64,000 nucleotides of DNA. Source: Vicugna vicugna. Its lineage: Eukaryota. The notes under the pieces were generated by a model that was not told the origin of the DNA, did no database searches, and saw only the letters and a program-made list of their open reading frames with translations. The stretch spans positions 186,001-250,000 of the forward strand of contig MU057744.1 in the NCBI GenBank assembly GCA_013265495.1, given 5' to 3'. This document shows, one piece after another, positions 3,001 to 49,184 of this stretch (its first letter is position 1; every line of letters starts with the position of its first letter). The translations under genes were made by a program, and so were the position numbers.

Positions 3001-3713
3001 GACAAACCAGAGGAAATCTGTGTAAGAAAAAGGGTTAAGTCTTTGTACACAATCTAAAACCAAGCCTCAGGCTTGCTTTCAGTCCCCTAGGTTAAGCACC
3101 GGTCGGACCGTGCGCTCTGTTTCAGTCAAGCAGCCTTGCATTTCAATCATTTGTTTCAAACATAAACATAAATTTCTGGAGCTCCTGAACAAGGCTGTAA
3201 TGCAAGAGCTGTTAATGAAGAGATAAGGCCTTCTGGAAATAGCTAAAGCTTCTTAAGAAATCGCAACTTTAAAGTCCCTGCCTACTAAAGGAAAGAAACA
3301 CGATGACTTGAGAAGATTATAAAGAAGAGGTTACTGTGGCGAGGTAGCTGCGAACGCCAGAGAGCAAGAAGCCCGACAACTGGCTTGTGACATCAAGAAG
3401 CTCAAATCTCACCTTCTTAGGAAATTTTTCTATCAGTTCACCAGTAAGTTGCCTCTGTTAACCTACATGCATAATATAAAAGTCAACTGTGCAGACTTCA
3501 GTTTTCTAGACACTAAGGACATCTCCAAAGGACTGAAAGCAGTAAGAAGGAAGTCACTAAGCGAGGCATTTACATGCTAAAGCTCTGTGTTTTATATGGT
3601 ACACTACAACCTCAATCAGAATGCTAATAAAGCTGCAATTAATCAAATTTTAAAATAGAAAATTACTGTGTAAGGATTTTTAGGTAGTAATCACTAGCTA
3701 AAACTCAAGTTAC

Positions 3714-27720: not shown

Positions 27721-28389
27721 CCTTTTTAATTTAAAGCCTTTTGGAGTCTTGGCACACTTCACTGAAAGTAATTTGTTAAATATGTAGAATATGTGTCACA
27801 ACTGTAAGAAGACATAAAAATAAGACAGTCCCTGCTATCAGAAAGATCAAAATTATTAGGAAGAGAAAACAAACACTACAATGATAATAATAGGTGAAAT
27901 ACTATCTGTGACAGTACATAAATGCAAAGAATTCAGAGGGTTCAGAAGAGAGAAAAACATGTCTGTTTTCAAGGAAAGAGTGGGGAGACACAAAATGGTT
28001 CACATAAAGGCCAGAGCATTCCTGGCTGAGACATGAGTAAGTGAGACACTGGCATGGAAGGGTGGCATTTAGGGACAGAAAAAAAACCAGCATGGTTAAA
28101 AAGCATGATATCAGGAAAACAAAGGATGTTATCATTCAGGAAATACTGACTAATCCCATTTTGACAATGGCATCAGGATGTATTTAAGGAGAAATGGGAG
28201 GTGGATAAATACAGCTGTTGAGGTTGGCTGAGCACGGAGAACCTCAAGCACGCATGCCAAGGAGTCTGAAATTACTCTTAGATTCAGTTAGCATTTTGCA
28301 AATTACAATTTAAAATTCATAACTATTAAAACAATACTAGAAGGAGAAATGAATTCAGGTTCAACTAACAGTTATGAAAATGGACTTAC

Positions 28390-28481
28390 ATATGATTAGA
28401 TCTTCTTCCTCTATTTGTTTTCTTTCCTATGACTGGAGTGCCAAAATGTTCAGGGTTGGTGAGTGGGAGCTGGTCTAATGT
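28390..28481 (-). CDS. ARID4B: ARID4B coding exon (~exon 7), 92 nt, [30 protein letters not shown](I)
   Basis: cccacag|ACATTAGAC...CATAT|gtaagt; phase 0-2. Confidence 0.95.
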
Positions 28482-31400: not shown

Positions 31401-32384
31401 GAAATGAAATTAGTTCTAAGAATTACATAAACTCAGAAAGAGTTCTATTACTTCACCAGTGTAAGAAGCCAAGTCCACTGTACTTGCCCCAAAGCTATAC
31501 GTATTAGCTATATTTAAACCTTCACAATTCACCAAATGTACTGAAGGCTTCTGTGCAGAAAACACTACTGGAAAAAGCGTAGCCTATCAAGATGACAGAA
31601 ACATGACTATTTCCCCAAAACAGCTTACAATTTTATAGAGAAAATGATAAAAGTAACCAAAAAGACCATAAAACAAAAATAAGAGAAGTACAAAAGGATT
31701 ACAGGATAAAGAGAGCCAGTCTGCTCAGAGAGCTCCTGAAAGACACCCTGAAGGAGGAAGCACTCAGTGGCCTGAGAGGAGCAGGGCTCAGCAGAAACCA
31801 GGAGAGCATGAGCCATAACCTTGAAATACCAAATAGTCTTACGAGGCCGAGGTACAGGTAAATGGTAGAATATGAGACGGAAAAGATAAGCTGGAATCAT
31901 AACAGAGAGAATACCTTAACTTGAAATGGGAATTCGGTCATGTAAGAGAAGGGAAAGTAACAACAAAGAAAAACATTAAAAATAAAGTCTAATAATTTAA
32001 AAAGCAGTATTAAAACGTCTCCACAGAAACACTGTTCTAAACAGTTACTAGAAAAAAGAAATCCTGGTTTGGCCACACTGTGCATTAATTAACATTTAGA
32101 CTGGACCAGATAAGACTATTTGTAACAATATGTCCGTTTTAAAAGTTCTGAGTTGCAAGTTACTAATCTAGAAAACTTTGTGAATTCCCTCCATTCTTAG
32201 GAACTTAATGACACCTTTCAATTTCAGAGCATGGTTTTGATGATAAAAAGTGCTGGCTTGAGAACCAGTTCTGACCATCAATACCATCATCTCTAAGTTG
32301 AACATCACAATCGCAATGACCCTCATGACGCTGTAAATGTAAGGTGTGTAGAAAGCACTGAGCAGAGTCCCTGGCAAATAGAAG

Positions 32385-32560
32385 CACTTCATTTATTCAT
32401 CCAACTAACATTTATTCAGTTCCTACTCTGTGCCAGGCACTGTTCTAGGAACTGGGAACAAAGTGGTGAAGAAAACATACAAAATCTCTGCTCTTTTGAC
32501 ACATTCTGGTAAGAAAGGCAGACAATAAACAATTAAGCACATATACATATTTTGGTGGCA
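32385..32560 (-). mobile_element. L2 3' end (preceded by a MIR tail at ~32250-32390)
   Basis: atttattcatccaactaacatttattcagttcctactctgtgccaggcactgttctaggaactgggaacaaagtggtgaa. Confidence 0.8.
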
Positions 32561-33064
32561 AAGAATAGTATGTGCTATAAAGAAAACTAAATCACCCTGA
32601 AGGGATTATGAGGAATGGAAGGAACTAGCGCGGAAAGGGCGGTCGGCAAGCCGTCTCCGAGGAGAGGCTACAAGCAGCAGTAGCAGGTAGGGCCTGCTTA
32701 CAGCATCTGCATTGCCTTTACTGATGGCGGGGCTGGCGTGGATCACATATCAGACACCTCTTTTCTACAGTTCTTCACAAACTAACGGAATCTATGTAAA
32801 AGCTGCCTAAAAATAATCATTAAACAGCCCCACAGTACTTTCTTCATGGGCAAACGCTAAAATACTTCTAGACAAAAAAGAATACTGAGCCTGGCACTCA
32901 AATGCAAGGCCTGAAACAGGTGTCACAGATGACACTATGGTGGTTTGGTGTATCAACGAGTTTTCCTGATTAACAAGTCAGCGGCTCTGGCTGGGAAAGG
33001 AAACCTTGCTGCCCGGATTCCGCGCACCCGGGCTGACGGCGGGCGCTGCGGGCGAGCCCCTTAC

Positions 33065-33144
33065 CTCGCTCTCGGCGAAGTGCCTCTCCCCCTTGAGGCA
33101 CAGCGAGGACCGCCGCAGCGTCTTCTCGTCCCCGTCGTCAAACA
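33065..33144 (-). CDS. ARID4B: ARID4B coding exon (~exon 6), 80 nt, (V)[26 protein letters not shown]
   Basis: ctcccgcag|TGTTTGAC...AGCGAG|gtaagg; phase 1-0; overlaps ORF 32978..33196. Confidence 0.95.
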
Positions 33145-33594
33145 CTGCGGGAGGGAGGCAGAAACGAAACCACTGAGCGGCTTTCAAGGTTAACAAGACG
33201 ACATGAACTACCGTCTAATTTTCTCAGCGCAAACAGAGCTGTTGTCTAAAAAGCCTGCTTCTGAAATCTGGTCCGCACTTTGTTTTCTAACGAACAACTT
33301 CCCACGTGGAGTAGTTTTTCCAGTCTCTAGCGGAACAGAAGTAACTGACATTGAAAAGAAAACCTGAAATTAAAACATCGTCCCTGGAACAGAAAACACC
33401 AAATAAAAATGAGAAGTTGGCATTTTCAGAAGAAACTTTTTAAATGCTAATTAATCCTTCTCAGTATGGTAAACAAAAGGCAAGTTTTCCTGCTGGTAAA
33501 TACTGACAGACTAACCTAGGAAACAGAAAATAAGAGTACCAATTTATATATTCAGACTACCCTTAAAAGATGACTCCATTTTTATTATTTAAAG

Positions 33595-33760
33595 CAACGT
33601 TCCTCAGCTTCAGTCCCAACACTGTGGACCAGATAACTGTCATGGGGGCCTGTGCCCTGCAGGACATTTAACAGCATCCCTGGCCTCCATCTCTAGATGC
33701 CAGTGGTACCCCCTTTTGCCCCCAGTTGAAAACTTACTTAAAGTACTAAAATGTCCCAGT
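33595..33760. mobile_element. MER20 (hAT-Charlie MITE)
   Basis: ggacatttaacagcatccctggcctccatctctagatgccagtggtacccc matches the recalled MER20 core. Confidence 0.8.
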
Positions 33761-34284
33761 AAACATTTATATATAAATAGAATATACGTATTTTTATGAC
33801 ATAATTTTAGCATATATTATGTTCCATACAAATCATGGAAAGGGAGTACCTCTACTTTAAATAAAGTCACCAGCCCTTGATTTTAGAAATAGTAGTTTTT
33901 GCCAAAAAAAAACACAAAACTAGGTTCTCATATGTTATATGTGACTTTACATTATGTGAGACTGGGAAAATACCTTTTACTACATCTTTTTAATGTTGTA
34001 ACTAAAATATTCTATGGTAAAAGTGCCACATTCATGAGACAACCACATTTAATTATCAACAAAACTTACTACATAGAATTGCTCACAGTCTATAACCTAC
34101 ACAGATTCAAATATTTCCTTATGTATCAAAATCAAATTTTCCCTCTCTTCACCAGGTTTTCTTCTCACCCCACAAAAATATACGCAAAACACATTTATAC
34201 TATTTCAAAGTTCCACCAAATTTTGACATCAACCAAAGACATTTTACTAGATGTTTATACTCATCTCTGAGGTCGTTAAAGAGC

Positions 34285-34712: not shown

Positions 34713-36064
34713 ATTACAAAGGAAAAGGTGACCATAGGAAAACTGACGGCAGAGGAGTAAAGCACAGAACACCTGCAGCTGAAGTGGCCACGGTTAACAG
34801 TCCCTTTATATATATACATATATAAACTCACACCCTGAAAATAAGAAAAAGACAACCAGTCCAAGAGGAAAAGAAAAAGCCTGGGAAGACACTATAAGCT
34901 GGTAATTCAAAAGAGAAAAAGAAACAGGGGATTACTGGATTCAAATGGTGGAGAAGAAGGATCCTGAACTCACCTCCTCTCATGAACACGATAAAATTAC
35001 AACTAATTGCTAAACAATCATCAATAAAAAAGAGGGGAACCCACCAAAAAACATCTTCTACATCAAAAGACATAAAGACGTAACCACAACGAAACAGTAG
35101 GAGGGGCACACTCACGATATCGTCAAATCCCACACACACTGGGGCGGGTTGGGGGGGGTGCAACTCACAAACTGGAGAATAATTATGCGGTACAAGTTCT
35201 CCCACAGGAGTGAGAGCTTCGAGGCCCACATCAGGCTCCCCAGCTCAAGGTTCATCACTAGCACAAGGAGCCTCCAGAGCATGTGGCTTTGAAGGCCAGG
35301 GGGGTCTGAATGGCAGGAGCCCCACAGGACTGGGGGCGGAGAGACTTTATCCTTAAAGGATGCGCATACAATCTCACCTGCACTGGGACCAAGGGCAAAA
35401 GCAGTAACTTCACAGGAACCTGGGCCAGACCTACCTGCTGGTCTAGGAAGGTCTCATGGGGAGGTGGGAAGCAGCTATGGCTCACCCTGGGGAAATAAAA
35501 GCTGGTGGTGGACATAACAGGGAGTGTTCATCTGCCTGAACTCTCCTGGAGGCTGACATCTTGCTTGGGTGGTTAGCACCAAGACCTGGCCCCACCCAAC
35601 AGCCTGCAGGCTTCTCAGGCCAAACAACTAACTGGGCAGGGACACAGCCCCACCCATTAGCAGAAGAGCTGCCTGAAGACCTCCTGAGCTTACAGTCAGT
35701 TGCCTCTCAACACATCCCTAGACAAAGCCCTGCCCACAAGAGGGCCAGGACCCAGTTCCACCCACCAGTGGGCAGGCACCAGTCCCTCCTGCTAGGAAAC
35801 CTGCACAAGCCTCTAGTCCAACCTCCACCCACCAGGGTGCAGACACCAGAAGTAAGAAAATAACAATTCCACAGCCTGTGGAAGAAGTCCACAAACCCAG
35901 GCCAAACTCTCCCCTGGGACCTGCTGATCCCTGGCCCTTGGGTGACCAGTGGGGAGTGCACTGCTGGGACACACAGATGTCTCCTACAGAGGGCTACATC
36001 TCCCAGGCTGAGAAACATAACTGATCCACACATACATAAAAATACAAATAGAAACTTACACAAA

Positions 36065-41961: not shown

Positions 41962-42052
41962 CTACAGTGTACCAACTCGCATCTGTTAATTTATTGATTA
42001 CAGCTTCCTGATAGGCACCGTCAAGATTCTTCACTTCCACAATAGCTCCAAC
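41962..42052 (-). CDS. ARID4B: ARID4B coding exon (~exon 5), 91 nt, [30 protein letters not shown]
   Basis: tactttag|GTTGGAGCT...GTAG|gtaagg; phase 0-1; overlaps ORF 41789..42040. Confidence 0.95.
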
Positions 42053-46930: not shown

Positions 46931-49073
46931 CAGAAATCAGAGAATGGAATACCAGACATGGAGTAACAATAAAGGGGTAAGTTTAAATATTTAATTAGTT
47001 GGTTAAAAAACAAAACAGCTTCCTGTGTTCAGTACAGAAAAGGTTGTTTTCCCTGTACAAAGCAGGAGTTCTTACAGGGACTGAACCATTAACGTGGTCT
47101 TATTTGATGTGCATGGTCATTAACTTAGGTAACAGACTCACAAACCAGGTATGAAAGGACAGATCCTATACTCACAGCATCCCAGGCATTTCTGTTTCAT
47201 ACAACAGCACTGTAACACTTTATTTAAATTATGTGTTTAGATGTCTGCATCTTTCACTCAGACTTAAGCCACTTAAGGATGAAAACAAGATGTAAATCCT
47301 AGAGTTTCAACACCTGACATAGTGCTTAGCACATAGTCAATGCTCAATAAGGGAAAACTGATGGGGAAGAAGTGTATCAACACATTGCTGAAAAATTTAT
47401 TAACTTTGAATCATAAACAAATTAAACTGGCACCGAAATATATTACGATTCTTGTTGAGAAAATCATTAGCTTTGAATTACAAGCAGATTTTTTCAGGGC
47501 AGCCACAAATACTAACAGCAAATTTCAGACAGTCAATATTTATAAGGCACAAGGTTCTGGTTGGCACTATCAGCAGAAGCAGTAGAAACTAACAGTTCTC
47601 GTCCTTTTACTGACACCAAGAAACAGCAGAGTTGCTACCTGCCATTTAGCTGGTTCACTCATTACCCAGAGCCCTCGAGCTGCGATTACCAGTCAGGGCC
47701 CGGAACTAACGCAGCACGGGGCCTGGCGCAGCGCTGCTCCGGCCCACGTGAAGCACCTTTCCTCACCCGCACGGAAGTGCTCACCTACAGGCCAAGCTCT
47801 GCTGAGGAAGGTCTCTACCGGAAGGGAGGGGTTTTGTCTAACTCACACGAAGATGTTACATGTGTGAGCAGTAGCTCTGTCTAAAAGAGTGAGAAAACTG
47901 ATAAAAAAAAAAAAAGCTTTCTCTTCATCTCTAAGATAGTAACGGCAAAAAACAAGTGCTCAGAGAACAGCAGTGTGTGAAGTCACAACAGGAAATGCCA
48001 CTGTAAGAGCACTGGAAGATGGTCAAACCACAAACGGCGCTCACAGGCACCAAGCACGTGCAAACTGACGGCAGGGTGGGGCACCGGGACCGACATCCTG
48101 CAGGCTTACAGTTCATTTAAAGGCCCGATCACAATGGCTCTGTGTAAGGGAGAATCACCCAGGCAGTTTTCTTCAACACATCCACGTGCAAGGAAGGAAC
48201 CTAGGCGTACAACGCACAGAAAAGGCTCCAAAGAGTCTCTGACACTCTCCCCTGGAAGTATATCACCTCCAAGGCCTGTTTAACTTCTGGTGTTCAAACC
48301 AACGTTTTGCAGGCCATCTGCTAATCTGGAATATAAATCCCTTGGAAACAGAGATCAGGTTATTCTCATACCCCCATCCTCCTTCCCATCTAACAGAGTA
48401 ACCTGCACAATTTGCCAATCAATAAATGATTAACAAAAGAATAAAGATCTACCTTGAAATCTCTCTCGTCTCATATTTTTCAACACTGAAAATTTACTAA
48501 AATGTAAAGAACTACATTTCTTTTTGTGCATTATCTGAGACAAAGCACAGATTTTTAGAAAGATTTTTCAGGAAAAGTAAAGGGTAAGGAATCCACAACT
48601 AGTTCCACGATCGTCAGTTATAAATCACATCCCAATCTCGTGGTTAAATCTGTAGGGGCGGGGGTGTCTTAGAACTGAGGTGCTATGGTCATTCCCATTC
48701 TGCCACTAATTTGCTATAATGACCCTGGAGAAATCACTAACCCTTTATGAACCTCATTTTTCTTACAATAAAATTAAGAAATTAAACCATATGACTTCTA
48801 AGTTCCTTTCCAGCTCTAAAAGGCTAATGATACAAACAGTAACAAGTCTGTGGTGAAACAGCATTGAAAATACCAGCTAGGATCATCTAATTTCATTCTA
48901 ACTGCAATACTTTAAAATCACAAATAATGCTTTGTTTTCAGGTATTTTTACAATCATCACTCCTAGAAACGAAATTCATCTTGCAGGAAAAAAATTCTTA
49001 AATACACTCACCAAATAAAAGTTTAATTATCAAGTACTAAACATGTAATTTATAAAATCTACACATACTGTAC

Positions 49074-49184
49074 CTTGACTTTGACAAGTCTTTTTGCTGT
49101 CTTGATCTTGGCTTCACAAAAGGCTCCTCTGTATTTCGCACTCACATCAGTGCCCACTGTCAAATAGGGAGGCTCATCAAGGGC
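49074..49184 (-). CDS. ARID4B: ARID4B coding exon (~exon 3), 111 nt, [37 protein letters not shown], Tudor
   Basis: ttttag|GCCCTTGAT...GTCAAG|gtacag; phase 0-0. Confidence 0.95.

What the first reader, a model, noticed from the sequence alone, without database searches (positions are those of the whole stretch)
33001..33190. ARID4B exon 6 is synonymously GC-saturated inside a local CpG burst (GC-biased gene conversion-like scar)
Seen: 26 of 27 codons in this exon end in G/C (only TTT does not), against 10/30 in exon 5 and 9/30 in exon 7. I count 22 CpGs in 33001-33180, 10 of them exonic, in an otherwise AT-rich, CpG-poor gene. The acceptor tract is C-rich (ctgcctccctcccgcag), unlike the T-rich tracts elsewhere, and the downstream intron is also nearly pure GC, so codon selection alone cannot explain it. 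The peptide matches human ARID4B as I recall it. Inference: a lineage-specific recombination hotspot drove AT-to-GC fixation across the exon while purifying selection kept the protein, possibly creating a new intragenic mini CpG island.
Basis: partly seen in the sequence, partly recalled or inferred. Interest (0 to 1): 0.75.

Follow-up and report, generated by a model that had tools for sequence, protein, structure and literature searches.

The report
GC-saturated exon in ARID4B gene
One small coding exon of the chromatin gene ARID4B, with a few dozen bases of intron on each side, has been pushed almost entirely to G and C without changing the protein. This is most likely a scar of recombination-linked biased gene conversion, which is striking to see but is a known kind of event.

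Summary
ARID4B lies on the minus strand. The exon is 33144..33065 (80 nt, aa 92-118 of the double Tudor domain), and its peptide is 26/26 identical to PDB 7dm4. G/C ends 25 of 26 full codons, against 188 of 525 in 14 other ARID4B exon segments of the window (Fisher p = 3e-10). The exon holds 52 G+C where its peptide allows 22 to 54.

It sits in the strongest CpG cluster of the 64 kb: 22 CpG in 33001-33180, observed/expected 1.05 against 0.26 window-wide. A 450-bp span meets CpG-island sequence criteria. The ARID4A paralogue exon in the same genome encodes almost the same peptide with GC3 10/26 and AT-rich flanks.

The patch is single-copy, non-repetitive and present in 14 DNA data sets. The GC-rich intron start is collinear with an AT-rich intron start in another mammal. 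In 18 read-through ARID4B sequences (pig, peacock, 16 unnamed), 17 peptides cannot encode an intron start as GC-rich as the window's and one can only equal it.

A regional, derived, protein-preserving AT-to-GC shift is therefore the best reading (GC-biased gene conversion, about 0.6). I could not reach orthologous exon DNA from any other mammal, so polarity on the exon itself, the hotspot and the methylation state remain untested. This is a new member of a known kind.

The parts
33065..33144 (-). ARID4B coding exon (aa 92-118: end of hybrid Tudor domain 1 and start of the disordered linker). GC3 is 25/26, with 10 CpG. It holds 52 G+C where its peptide allows 22 to 54.
   Evidence: structural placement from PMC8038949 (passages read)
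33145..33161 (-). C-rich polypyrimidine tract and acceptor (ctgcctccctcccgcag). The last 16 intron bases are 75% GC.
33020..33064 (-). Donor site and GC-rich start of the downstream intron (first 45 nt are 82% GC). This is the part that can no longer be aligned to the AT-rich intron starts of other mammals.
32960..33019 (-). Intron stretch still collinear with the read-through tail of the unnamed mammalian transcript P0121, with only a few differences. This shows the GC core arose by substitution and not by insertion.
   Evidence: (local alignment, score 39)
32884..33333 (.). Longest span with GC >= 0.55 and CpG o/e >= 0.65 (450 bp, GC 0.55, o/e 0.91, 31 CpG). It is a CpG island by sequence criteria, centred on the exon.
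32601..32750 (.). Second, weaker GC/CpG patch in the same intron (GC 0.54-0.60, 8 CpG), single-copy in the genome. With it, the span meeting GC >= 0.50 and o/e >= 0.60 extends to 32592-33421 (830 bp).
32810..32894 (-). Ordinary AT-rich intron block matching the read-through tail of the pig isoform. It marks where normal composition resumes.
   Evidence: local alignment, score 77
41963..42052 (-). Upstream neighbouring exon (aa 62-91): GC3 10/30, T-rich acceptor, flanks 28% GC.
28389..28481 (-). Downstream neighbouring exon (aa 119-149): GC3 10/31, flanks 31% GC.

Best explanation
A short tract of about 140 bp was driven from A/T to G/C in this animal's lineage by GC-biased gene conversion at a recurrently used meiotic recombination site. 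The tract covers the acceptor polypyrimidine run, the whole 80-nt exon and the first ~40 nt of the next intron. A weaker halo spans about 450-830 bp.

Heteroduplex repair favouring G/C alleles fixed weak-to-strong changes at every site where they were tolerated: intron bases, third codon positions, and first positions of Leu and Arg codons. Purifying selection on the Tudor domain removed every change that would alter the peptide. The exon therefore ended at 52 of the 54 G+C its peptide allows. The same bias opposes CpG decay, so the patch now reads as a small intragenic CpG island.

Shown: the anatomy, the statistical excess, single-copy status, collinearity with an AT-rich intron in another mammal, and AT-rich flanks elsewhere.

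Inferred: that the exon's synonymous sites were AT-rich ancestrally, that recombination was the cause, and that the tract is or was a hotspot.
For: 1. The shift covers coding and non-coding bases alike. GC3 is 25/26, the acceptor tract is C-rich, and the first 45 intron bases are 82% GC. Selection on codons alone does not explain this.

2. The shift is near the ceiling. The saturation index is 0.94, against 0.19-0.56 in 14 other exon segments and 0.39 in the ARID4A paralogue exon. All 3 Leu codons are CTN and 2 of 3 Arg codons are CGG.

3. The peptide is unchanged: 26/26 against PDB 7dm4.

4. The same or nearly the same peptide is encoded with ordinary codons elsewhere. ARID4A in this genome has GC3 10/26 with a T-rich acceptor. 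Seven distant metagenome loci have 7-15 of 26.

5. The flanks appear derived. I picked 18 ARID4B-type read-through ORFs/isoforms by eye from the 80 proteins printed (pig, peacock, 16 unnamed). For 17 of them, the highest GC their peptide could encode over the intron start is below the window's observed GC. For one it is equal.

6. The change was by substitution, not insertion. P0121's tail aligns collinearly to intron offsets ~42-105. Over the full-length tail alignments, 20 sites are A/T in P0121 and G/C in the window, against 1 the other way. For P0122 the counts are 19 and 2.

7. The scale fits. The core is ~140 bp inside a 450-bp halo, and normal composition returns by 32894.

8. The patch is single-copy, with no donor copy in the 2.03-Gb genome. 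It has no tandem or direct repeats.

9. The sequence is real. All 232 sampled words are held by 14 DNA data sets of two organism labels in 5 studies. Four rows of one study are not flagged as a possible source.

10. The framework is published. PRDM9-independent hotspots at CpG-island-like, hypomethylated sites are active in most placental mammals and were detected through gBGC signatures (PMC11161765; abstract and passages read).
Against: - The decisive comparison is missing. No orthologous exon DNA of another mammal was obtained, so weak-to-strong polarity at the 26 synonymous sites is inferred from the flanks, the paralogue and the other exons.
- The outgroup flank evidence comes from back-translated peptides. 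Only codon positions 1-2 are determined.
- The first ~40 intron bases cannot be aligned reliably, so most of the 20:1 asymmetry reflects composition rather than site-by-site homology. In the reliably aligned part I count by eye only 3 such sites and 0 the other way (output).
- On the acceptor side the bound is weaker. In 4 of 15 genomic ORFs the maximum possible GC exceeds the window's.
- CpG o/e of about 1 would also be expected from a germline-unmethylated regulatory island, whatever made it.
- PRDM9-directed hotspots are short-lived, so saturation needs a long-lived or recurrent hotspot, which is not shown. PRDM9-type SSXRD exons with open frames exist in this genome.
Confidence: 0.6

Rival explanations
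1. A newly arisen, germline-unmethylated regulatory CpG island (an internal promoter or enhancer of ARID4B or of an antisense transcript). Loss of methylation stops CpG decay, and selection or local mutation bias, not gene conversion, built up G+C. The exon is caught inside it.
For: The patch meets CpG-island criteria with o/e 0.91-1.05. Truncated isoforms ending just after this exon exist in pig and in two unnamed transcripts, and mouse has a short alternative form.
Against: Absence of methylation preserves CpG but does not by itself convert A/T to G/C at nearly every free site. Selection for a regulatory element would not be expected to saturate all 26 synonymous sites and the polypyrimidine tract alike. 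No promoter evidence was obtained. This rival is not exclusive of gBGC: hypomethylated islands are default hotspots (PMC11161765, abstract read).
Confidence: 0.14
2. The GC-rich exon is ancestral, shared by many placental mammals. Only the intron flanks differ between lineages, or pig and the others lost a GC-rich flank.
For: No mammalian orthologous exon DNA was seen, so this is not directly excluded. ARID4B exons evolve slowly. Guide RNAs of human and pig that fall in neighbouring exons differ from the window at about 2.5-4% of positions (by eye). An ancestral state would therefore persist.
Against: 17 of 18 read-through sequences, of at least seven different flank types, cannot encode an intron start as GC-rich as the window's, and the pig's begins AT-rich right at the donor. 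An exon at 96% GC3 abutting AT-rich introns would need exon-specific selection, for which nothing speaks. The other ARID4B exons (36%), the ARID4A paralogue exon (10/26) and 7 distant homologues (7-15/26) are all ordinary.
Confidence: 0.1
3. Selection on the exon itself, for splicing enhancers, mRNA stability or translation, drove G/C-ending codons.
For: GC3 is 25/26 with the protein unchanged.
Against: The enrichment continues into the polypyrimidine tract and about 40-60 nt of intron. A C-for-T swap in the acceptor tract has no codon meaning. The 14 other segments of the same mRNA show 36% GC3.
Confidence: 0.04
4. Non-allelic gene conversion or insertion from a GC-rich donor copy (a duplicate, retrocopy or foreign fragment), or an assembly artefact.
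For: The tract is short and sharply bounded. tblastn extended weakly into the upstream intron, which I take for chance.
Against: The genome has only two places encoding the peptide, ARID4B and the AT-rich ARID4A. The patch DNA is single-copy. The intron part is collinear with another mammal's intron. The sequence recurs in 14 DNA data sets. The antisense ORF has no relative among 1.84 billion representatives apart from one 6388-aa protein at 27% identity, E 7e-7, which I take for a spurious match.
Confidence: 0.03

Closest known systems
GC-biased gene conversion tracts and biased clustered substitutions in mammalian genomes (phastBias-type tracts; human accelerated regions with weak-to-strong bias) - recalled from the literature, not read here
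   Same: A short tract in which A/T bases were replaced by G/C regardless of coding status. The protein is held by purifying selection. The state is local to one lineage as far as the flanks show.
   Different: Here the exon is essentially saturated (52 of the 54 G+C its peptide allows) with zero amino-acid change. The branch-specific weak-to-strong count that defines such tracts was not obtained for the exon.
PRDM9-independent recombination hotspots at CpG-island-like, hypomethylated sites in placental mammals (Joseph et al. 2024, PMC11161765; abstract and method passages read). GC peaks of the dog genome (PMC4053742, seen in a search listing only)
   Same: A CpG-island-like patch with a gBGC-type composition. 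Such hotspots are comparatively stable, which would allow saturation.
   Different: Those hotspots are mostly promoter islands shared between species. This one lies on an internal coding exon of an AT-rich gene and seems absent from pig and other sequences. No recombination or methylation data exist for it here.
Fxy/Mid1 of Mus musculus after its move into the pseudoautosomal region (recalled, not read here)
   Same: A dramatic rise of GC3 and intron GC in part of a gene, attributed to intense recombination.
   Different: Fxy involves kilobases, a chromosomal relocation and many amino-acid changes. Here only about 140-450 bp are affected, there is no sign of rearrangement, and the peptide is intact.
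ARID4A (RBBP1) paralogous exon in the same genome (G000:C3202:6929099-6929176, locus L003)
   Same: Same exon structure and 24/26 identical peptide.
   Different: GC3 10/26, a T-rich acceptor, 35% GC and 8 CpG in the surrounding ~1 kb. It serves as the internal control for what this exon looks like without the shift.

Membership tests
ARID4B orthologue, Tudor-domain exon | Peptide identical or near-identical to ARID4B and closer to it than to ARID4A | tested here: met
   26/26 to PDB 7dm4 (ARID4B) against 24/26 to 2mam (ARID4A). The other 14 exon segments of the window follow ARID4B in order.
ARID4B orthologue, Tudor-domain exon | Canonical splice sites and a reading frame continuous with the neighbouring exons | tested here: met
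   AG at 33146-33145 and GT at 33064-33063. The phase-1 start is completed by the G that ends the upstream exon, and the phase-0 end joins the next exon.
GC-biased gene conversion tract | Composition shift affects synonymous and non-coding sites alike over roughly 0.1-1 kb | tested here: met
GC-biased gene conversion tract | Excess of weak-to-strong over strong-to-weak substitutions on a defined branch | tested here: inconclusive
   Tested on the intron flank only, against back-translated peptides: 20 vs 1 (P0121) and 19 vs 2 (P0122). Only 3 vs 0 fall in the reliably aligned part (by eye). Exon sites were not testable and the branch is not defined.
GC-biased gene conversion tract | State absent from outgroup species | tested here: inconclusive
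   Flanks: 17 of 18 read-through sequences cannot be as GC-rich, but only pig and peacock are named. Exon DNA of outgroups was not reached (20 guide RNAs read, none in the exon).
GC-biased gene conversion tract | Coincides with a present or past recombination hotspot | not testable with these tools
   No recombination map, DMC1 or population data.
CpG island | At least 200 bp with GC >= 0.50 and CpG observed/expected >= 0.60 | tested here: met
   450 bp at GC 0.55 and o/e 0.91; 830 bp at GC 0.50 and o/e 0.81
CpG island | Unmethylated in the germline, or promoter-like chromatin | not testable with these tools
   No methylation, CAGE or chromatin data at hand
Repeat-derived or RNA-gene-derived GC patch | Multiple genomic copies, tandem structure, or a match to an RNA family or tRNA | tested here: not met
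   Single-copy. No tandem or direct repeats. 3 Rfam matches, all far below their gathering scores and none in the GC core. No tRNA.

The most novel reading that the evidence does not exclude
A CpG island was born de novo on a constitutive coding exon. In this reading a long-lived, PRDM9-independent recombination site arose inside the AT-rich ARID4B gene body of this lineage and drove about 140 bp to G+C saturation. It thereby created an unmethylated island that now sustains its own hotspot activity, and perhaps an internal promoter or the 3' end of a Tudor-only short isoform. That would be a natural, datable example of the proposed hotspot-hypomethylation-gBGC feedback, caught on a site where the ancestral sequence is pinned by a fully conserved peptide.
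Probability: 0.2. Interest if true: 0.6.

Novelty: new member of a known kind. Interest (0 to 1): 0.42.

Why it matters
If the polarity holds, this exon is an unusually clean gBGC case. The peptide is invariant, so every tolerated site can be scored, and nearly all of them went to G/C within about 140 bp of an otherwise AT-rich, slowly evolving gene.

It would warn against reading such exons as codon-usage or positive-selection signals. It would also offer a small, well-bounded locus for asking whether biased conversion can create a CpG island inside a gene, and whether that island becomes a stable hotspot or a regulatory element. If the state proves ancestral, or the island proves methylated and cold, the finding is just a local compositional oddity.

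Tried and rejected
**Outgroup exon DNA**
- A degenerate back-translated pattern of 21 codons scanned metagenome contigs. It gave 7 loci, all distant ARID4-type genes by their peptides and flanks (my reading: fish or invertebrates), none mammalian. Genome contigs gave 0 and viral contigs gave 0.
- CRISPR guide tables: pig libraries (3 guides; 5 of 10 guides visible in a cut file) and human libraries (2 guides with sequence; 10 guides; one search gave names only). 0 of 20 guides lie in the target exon. They served only as a by-eye control on neighbouring exons.

**Sequencing runs**
- The look-up of sequencing runs gave presence only.
No variant, splice-joint or relative-species comparison was therefore possible.

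**Protein searches**
- The three protein-database searches found no ORF with the window's own GC-rich flanks.
- The search of representatives with the 86-aa antisense ORF found one spurious long protein.

**Earlier findings and literature**
- Earlier findings of this scan: nothing on this sequence, place, genome or gene name. Word hits concerned other organisms.
- Literature: 'ARID4B' with 'biased gene conversion' gave 3 papers, none relevant by title or abstract. 'biased gene conversion' with 'camelids' gave 3 listed, none relevant. 'PRDM9' with 'camel' and 'recombination hotspots' gave nothing on point in the listing.

**Readings considered and dropped**
- Insertion of a GC-rich element after the donor. 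The pig isoform suggested it, because pig lacks about 110-135 nt there. P0121 is collinear with the window, so I dropped it.
- Remnant of the previous exon upstream of the acceptor (the weak tblastn extension). Judged chance.

**Not completed**
I stopped that step and used the counts and a by-eye count on the output.
- PRDM9 status: only two SSXRD-type exons were located. This was not pursued.

Full report
**What is there**

The window carries the 5' half of ARID4B on its minus strand. tblastn with a pangolin ARID4B protein finds 15 exon segments, from aa 3 at 49184 down to aa 612 at 3713.

The flagged exon is 33144..33065 (80 nt). It has an acceptor AG at 33146-33145 and a donor GT at 33064-33063. 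It starts in phase 1, completed by the G that ends the upstream exon.

Its 26 full codons give [26 protein letters not shown]. This is identical at 26/26 to residues 93-118 of the ARID4B double Tudor domain in PDB 7dm4, and at 24/26 to ARID4A in 2mam. According to the structure paper these residues cover the last strands of hybrid Tudor domain 1, a short 3-10 helix at Arg103-Ser105, and the start of the disordered linker (PMC8038949, passages read).

**Checking the observation**

- G or C ends 25 of 26 full codons, or 26 of 27 with the split GTG. TTT is the only exception.
- The two neighbouring exons have 10/30 and 10/31. The 14 other exon segments together have 188/525 = 36% (Fisher p = 3.3e-10).
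- The exon holds 52 G+C where its peptide allows between 22 and 54. That is a saturation index of 0.94, against 0.19-0.56 for the other segments.
- There are 22 CpG in 33001-33180, 10 of them exonic. GC is 0.68 and observed/expected CpG 1.05, in a window with GC 0.363 and o/e 0.26.
- This is the highest 190-bp CpG count in the 64 kb (23; 99th percentile 8; next peak 13).
- The acceptor tract is C-rich, while the acceptor tracts printed for the other exons are T-rich.
- The first 45 intron bases are 82% GC.
- The longest span with GC >= 0.55 and o/e >= 0.65 is 32884-33333 (450 bp, 31 CpG). With looser criteria it is 32592-33421 (830 bp), which takes in a second, weaker patch at 32601-32750.

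**Is it real and local?**

- The patch DNA is single-copy in the 2.03-Gb assembly.
- The peptide is encoded at only two places, ARID4B and its paralogue ARID4A.
- There are no tandem or direct repeats, no tRNA and no Rfam match near a gathering score.
- All 232 sampled words of 32000-34200 are held by 14 DNA data sets under two organism codes in 5 studies. Ten rows may be the assembly's own source; four rows of one study are not so flagged.

An assembly artefact or a donor copy is therefore unlikely.

**Internal controls**

The ARID4A exon of the same genome encodes 24/26 of the same residues with GC3 10/26, a T-rich acceptor and 35% GC around it.

Seven distant homologues, fetched by a degenerate pattern from metagenome contigs, use 7-15 G/C-ending codons of 26. 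The peptide therefore has no intrinsic need for G/C codons.

**Is the state derived?**

I could not obtain the orthologous exon DNA of any other mammal. Pattern scans of three collections gave only those distant loci. None of 20 pig and human guide-RNA sequences read in paper supplements lies in this exon.

By eye, the guides that fall in neighbouring exons differ from the window at 8 of 203 positions (human) and 4 of 160 (pig, 3 distinct sites), compared. ARID4B exons are therefore normally about 96-97% identical between these species.

What could be tested is the flanks. The protein database holds ORFs and isoforms that read from this exon into the intron. From the 80 proteins printed I picked by eye the 18 that carry the ARID4B-type peptide with such a tail. 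I left out the ARID4A-type rows and those whose peptide departs from the ARID4B type (...KGARHF... and similar variants, fish by their named members). The 18 comprise one from pig (UniRef A0A8D1L836), one from peacock and 16 unnamed.

- For 17 of them, the highest GC content their tail could possibly encode is below the window's observed GC over the same length. For one it is equal.
- On the acceptor side the same bound holds for 11 of 15 genomic ORFs.
- Pig and two unnamed spliced transcripts start the intron with the same AT-rich reading (VSNHLM, VSNHLM, VSHHLT).
- The tail of one of these, P0121, aligns collinearly with the window's intron from about 42 to 105 bases after the donor.

The window's GC-rich intron start is therefore the same DNA changed by substitution, not an insertion. 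The pig isoform lacks about 110-135 bases there, which at first suggested an insertion in the window; P0121 argues against that.

Over the full-length tail alignments, sites that are A/T in the other sequence and G/C in the window outnumber the reverse by 20 to 1 (P0121) and 19 to 2 (P0122). Most of these lie in the first ~40 bases, where the alignment is not reliable. In the reliable part I count 3 to 0 by eye.

Composition returns to normal by 32894, where the window matches the pig tail well.

Among named ARID4B proteins at hand, the window's variable exons are closest to sperm whale (131/140), then other whales, hippopotamus and felids (128/140). Pig is therefore a reasonable relative.

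**Mechanism**

The pattern has four features. It is a short core of about 140 bp. It covers intron and synonymous sites alike. It is pushed nearly to the limit the peptide allows. It has no amino-acid change and no CpG depletion.

This is what GC-biased gene conversion at a repeatedly used recombination site produces, and I hold that as the best explanation at about 0.6. Published work shows that CpG-island-like, hypomethylated sites act as PRDM9-independent hotspots in most placental mammals, that they are relatively stable, and that they leave gBGC signatures (PMC11161765; abstract and passages read). This would allow saturation. Conversion-tract sizes, phastBias tracts, accelerated regions and the mouse Fxy case are recalled, not read here.

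The main rival is a newly unmethylated regulatory island built by other forces (0.14). It is not exclusive of gBGC. An ancestral GC-rich exon (0.10) is not directly excluded, but fits badly with AT-rich flanks that begin right at the donor in pig. Codon-level selection (0.04) and a donor copy or artefact (0.03) fit the data poorly.

**What remains open**

- The polarity of the exon's own synonymous sites.
- The age of the tract. Two organism codes share it identically.
- Whether a hotspot exists.
- The methylation state.
- Whether the island has any transcriptional role.

**Verdict**

This is a real and statistically extreme local anomaly. It is most likely a lineage-derived gBGC scar that has produced a small intragenic CpG island, which makes it a new member of a known kind. 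It is of moderate interest, chiefly as a very clean example.

Noticed in passing
window 47584-47872: The second-highest CpG cluster of the window (13 CpG in 190 bp) lies in the intron between the aa 3-40 and aa 41-62 exons. By eye it contains an ETS-like ccggaagt-type motif and a cacgtg E-box. It could be an intronic promoter or enhancer.
   Followed up: no
window 35000-36050: A 54% GC but CpG-poor stretch reads by eye like the 5' end of a LINE-1 element. It is followed by about 6 kb with strong A-over-T skew on the plus strand.
   Followed up: no
window 32978-33064 (minus strand) and proteins P0015, P0121, P0122, P0137: Transcripts that fail to splice after this exon, or splice to an alternative end, exist in pig, in two unnamed mammals and in mouse. 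They give Tudor-only proteins of about 90-155 aa. In the window, read-through would add 28 residues before a stop at about 32978. A short isoform ending here may be conserved.
   Followed up: partly
window 32895-33005 versus pig isoform P0015: The pig read-through tail jumps from the donor almost directly to the block that lies 170 nt into the window's intron. Pig therefore lacks about 110-135 nt that the window and P0121 share. This is either a pig deletion or a different transcript structure.
   Followed up: partly
window 32000-34200, RNA runs X15-X18: RNA-derived contig sets hold 0.32-0.39 of the sampled words of this 2.2-kb stretch, far more than an 80-nt exon would give. This hints at intronic or retained-intron RNA.
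   Followed up: no
G000:C4951:30966-31058 (L011) and G000:C9436:1645027-1645107 (L012): Two open-frame matches to the SSXRD domain (66.6 and 51.9 bits, both over the Pfam cut-off), the domain found in PRDM9/PRDM7 and SSX proteins. Whether a complete PRDM9 exists in this genome was not examined.
   Followed up: no
window 49184 and upstream: The aa 3-40 exon starts right after an acceptor (tttttag), so the first two codons of ARID4B lie in a further upstream exon that was not located. No promoter-type CpG island is seen anywhere in 49-64 kb.
   Followed up: no
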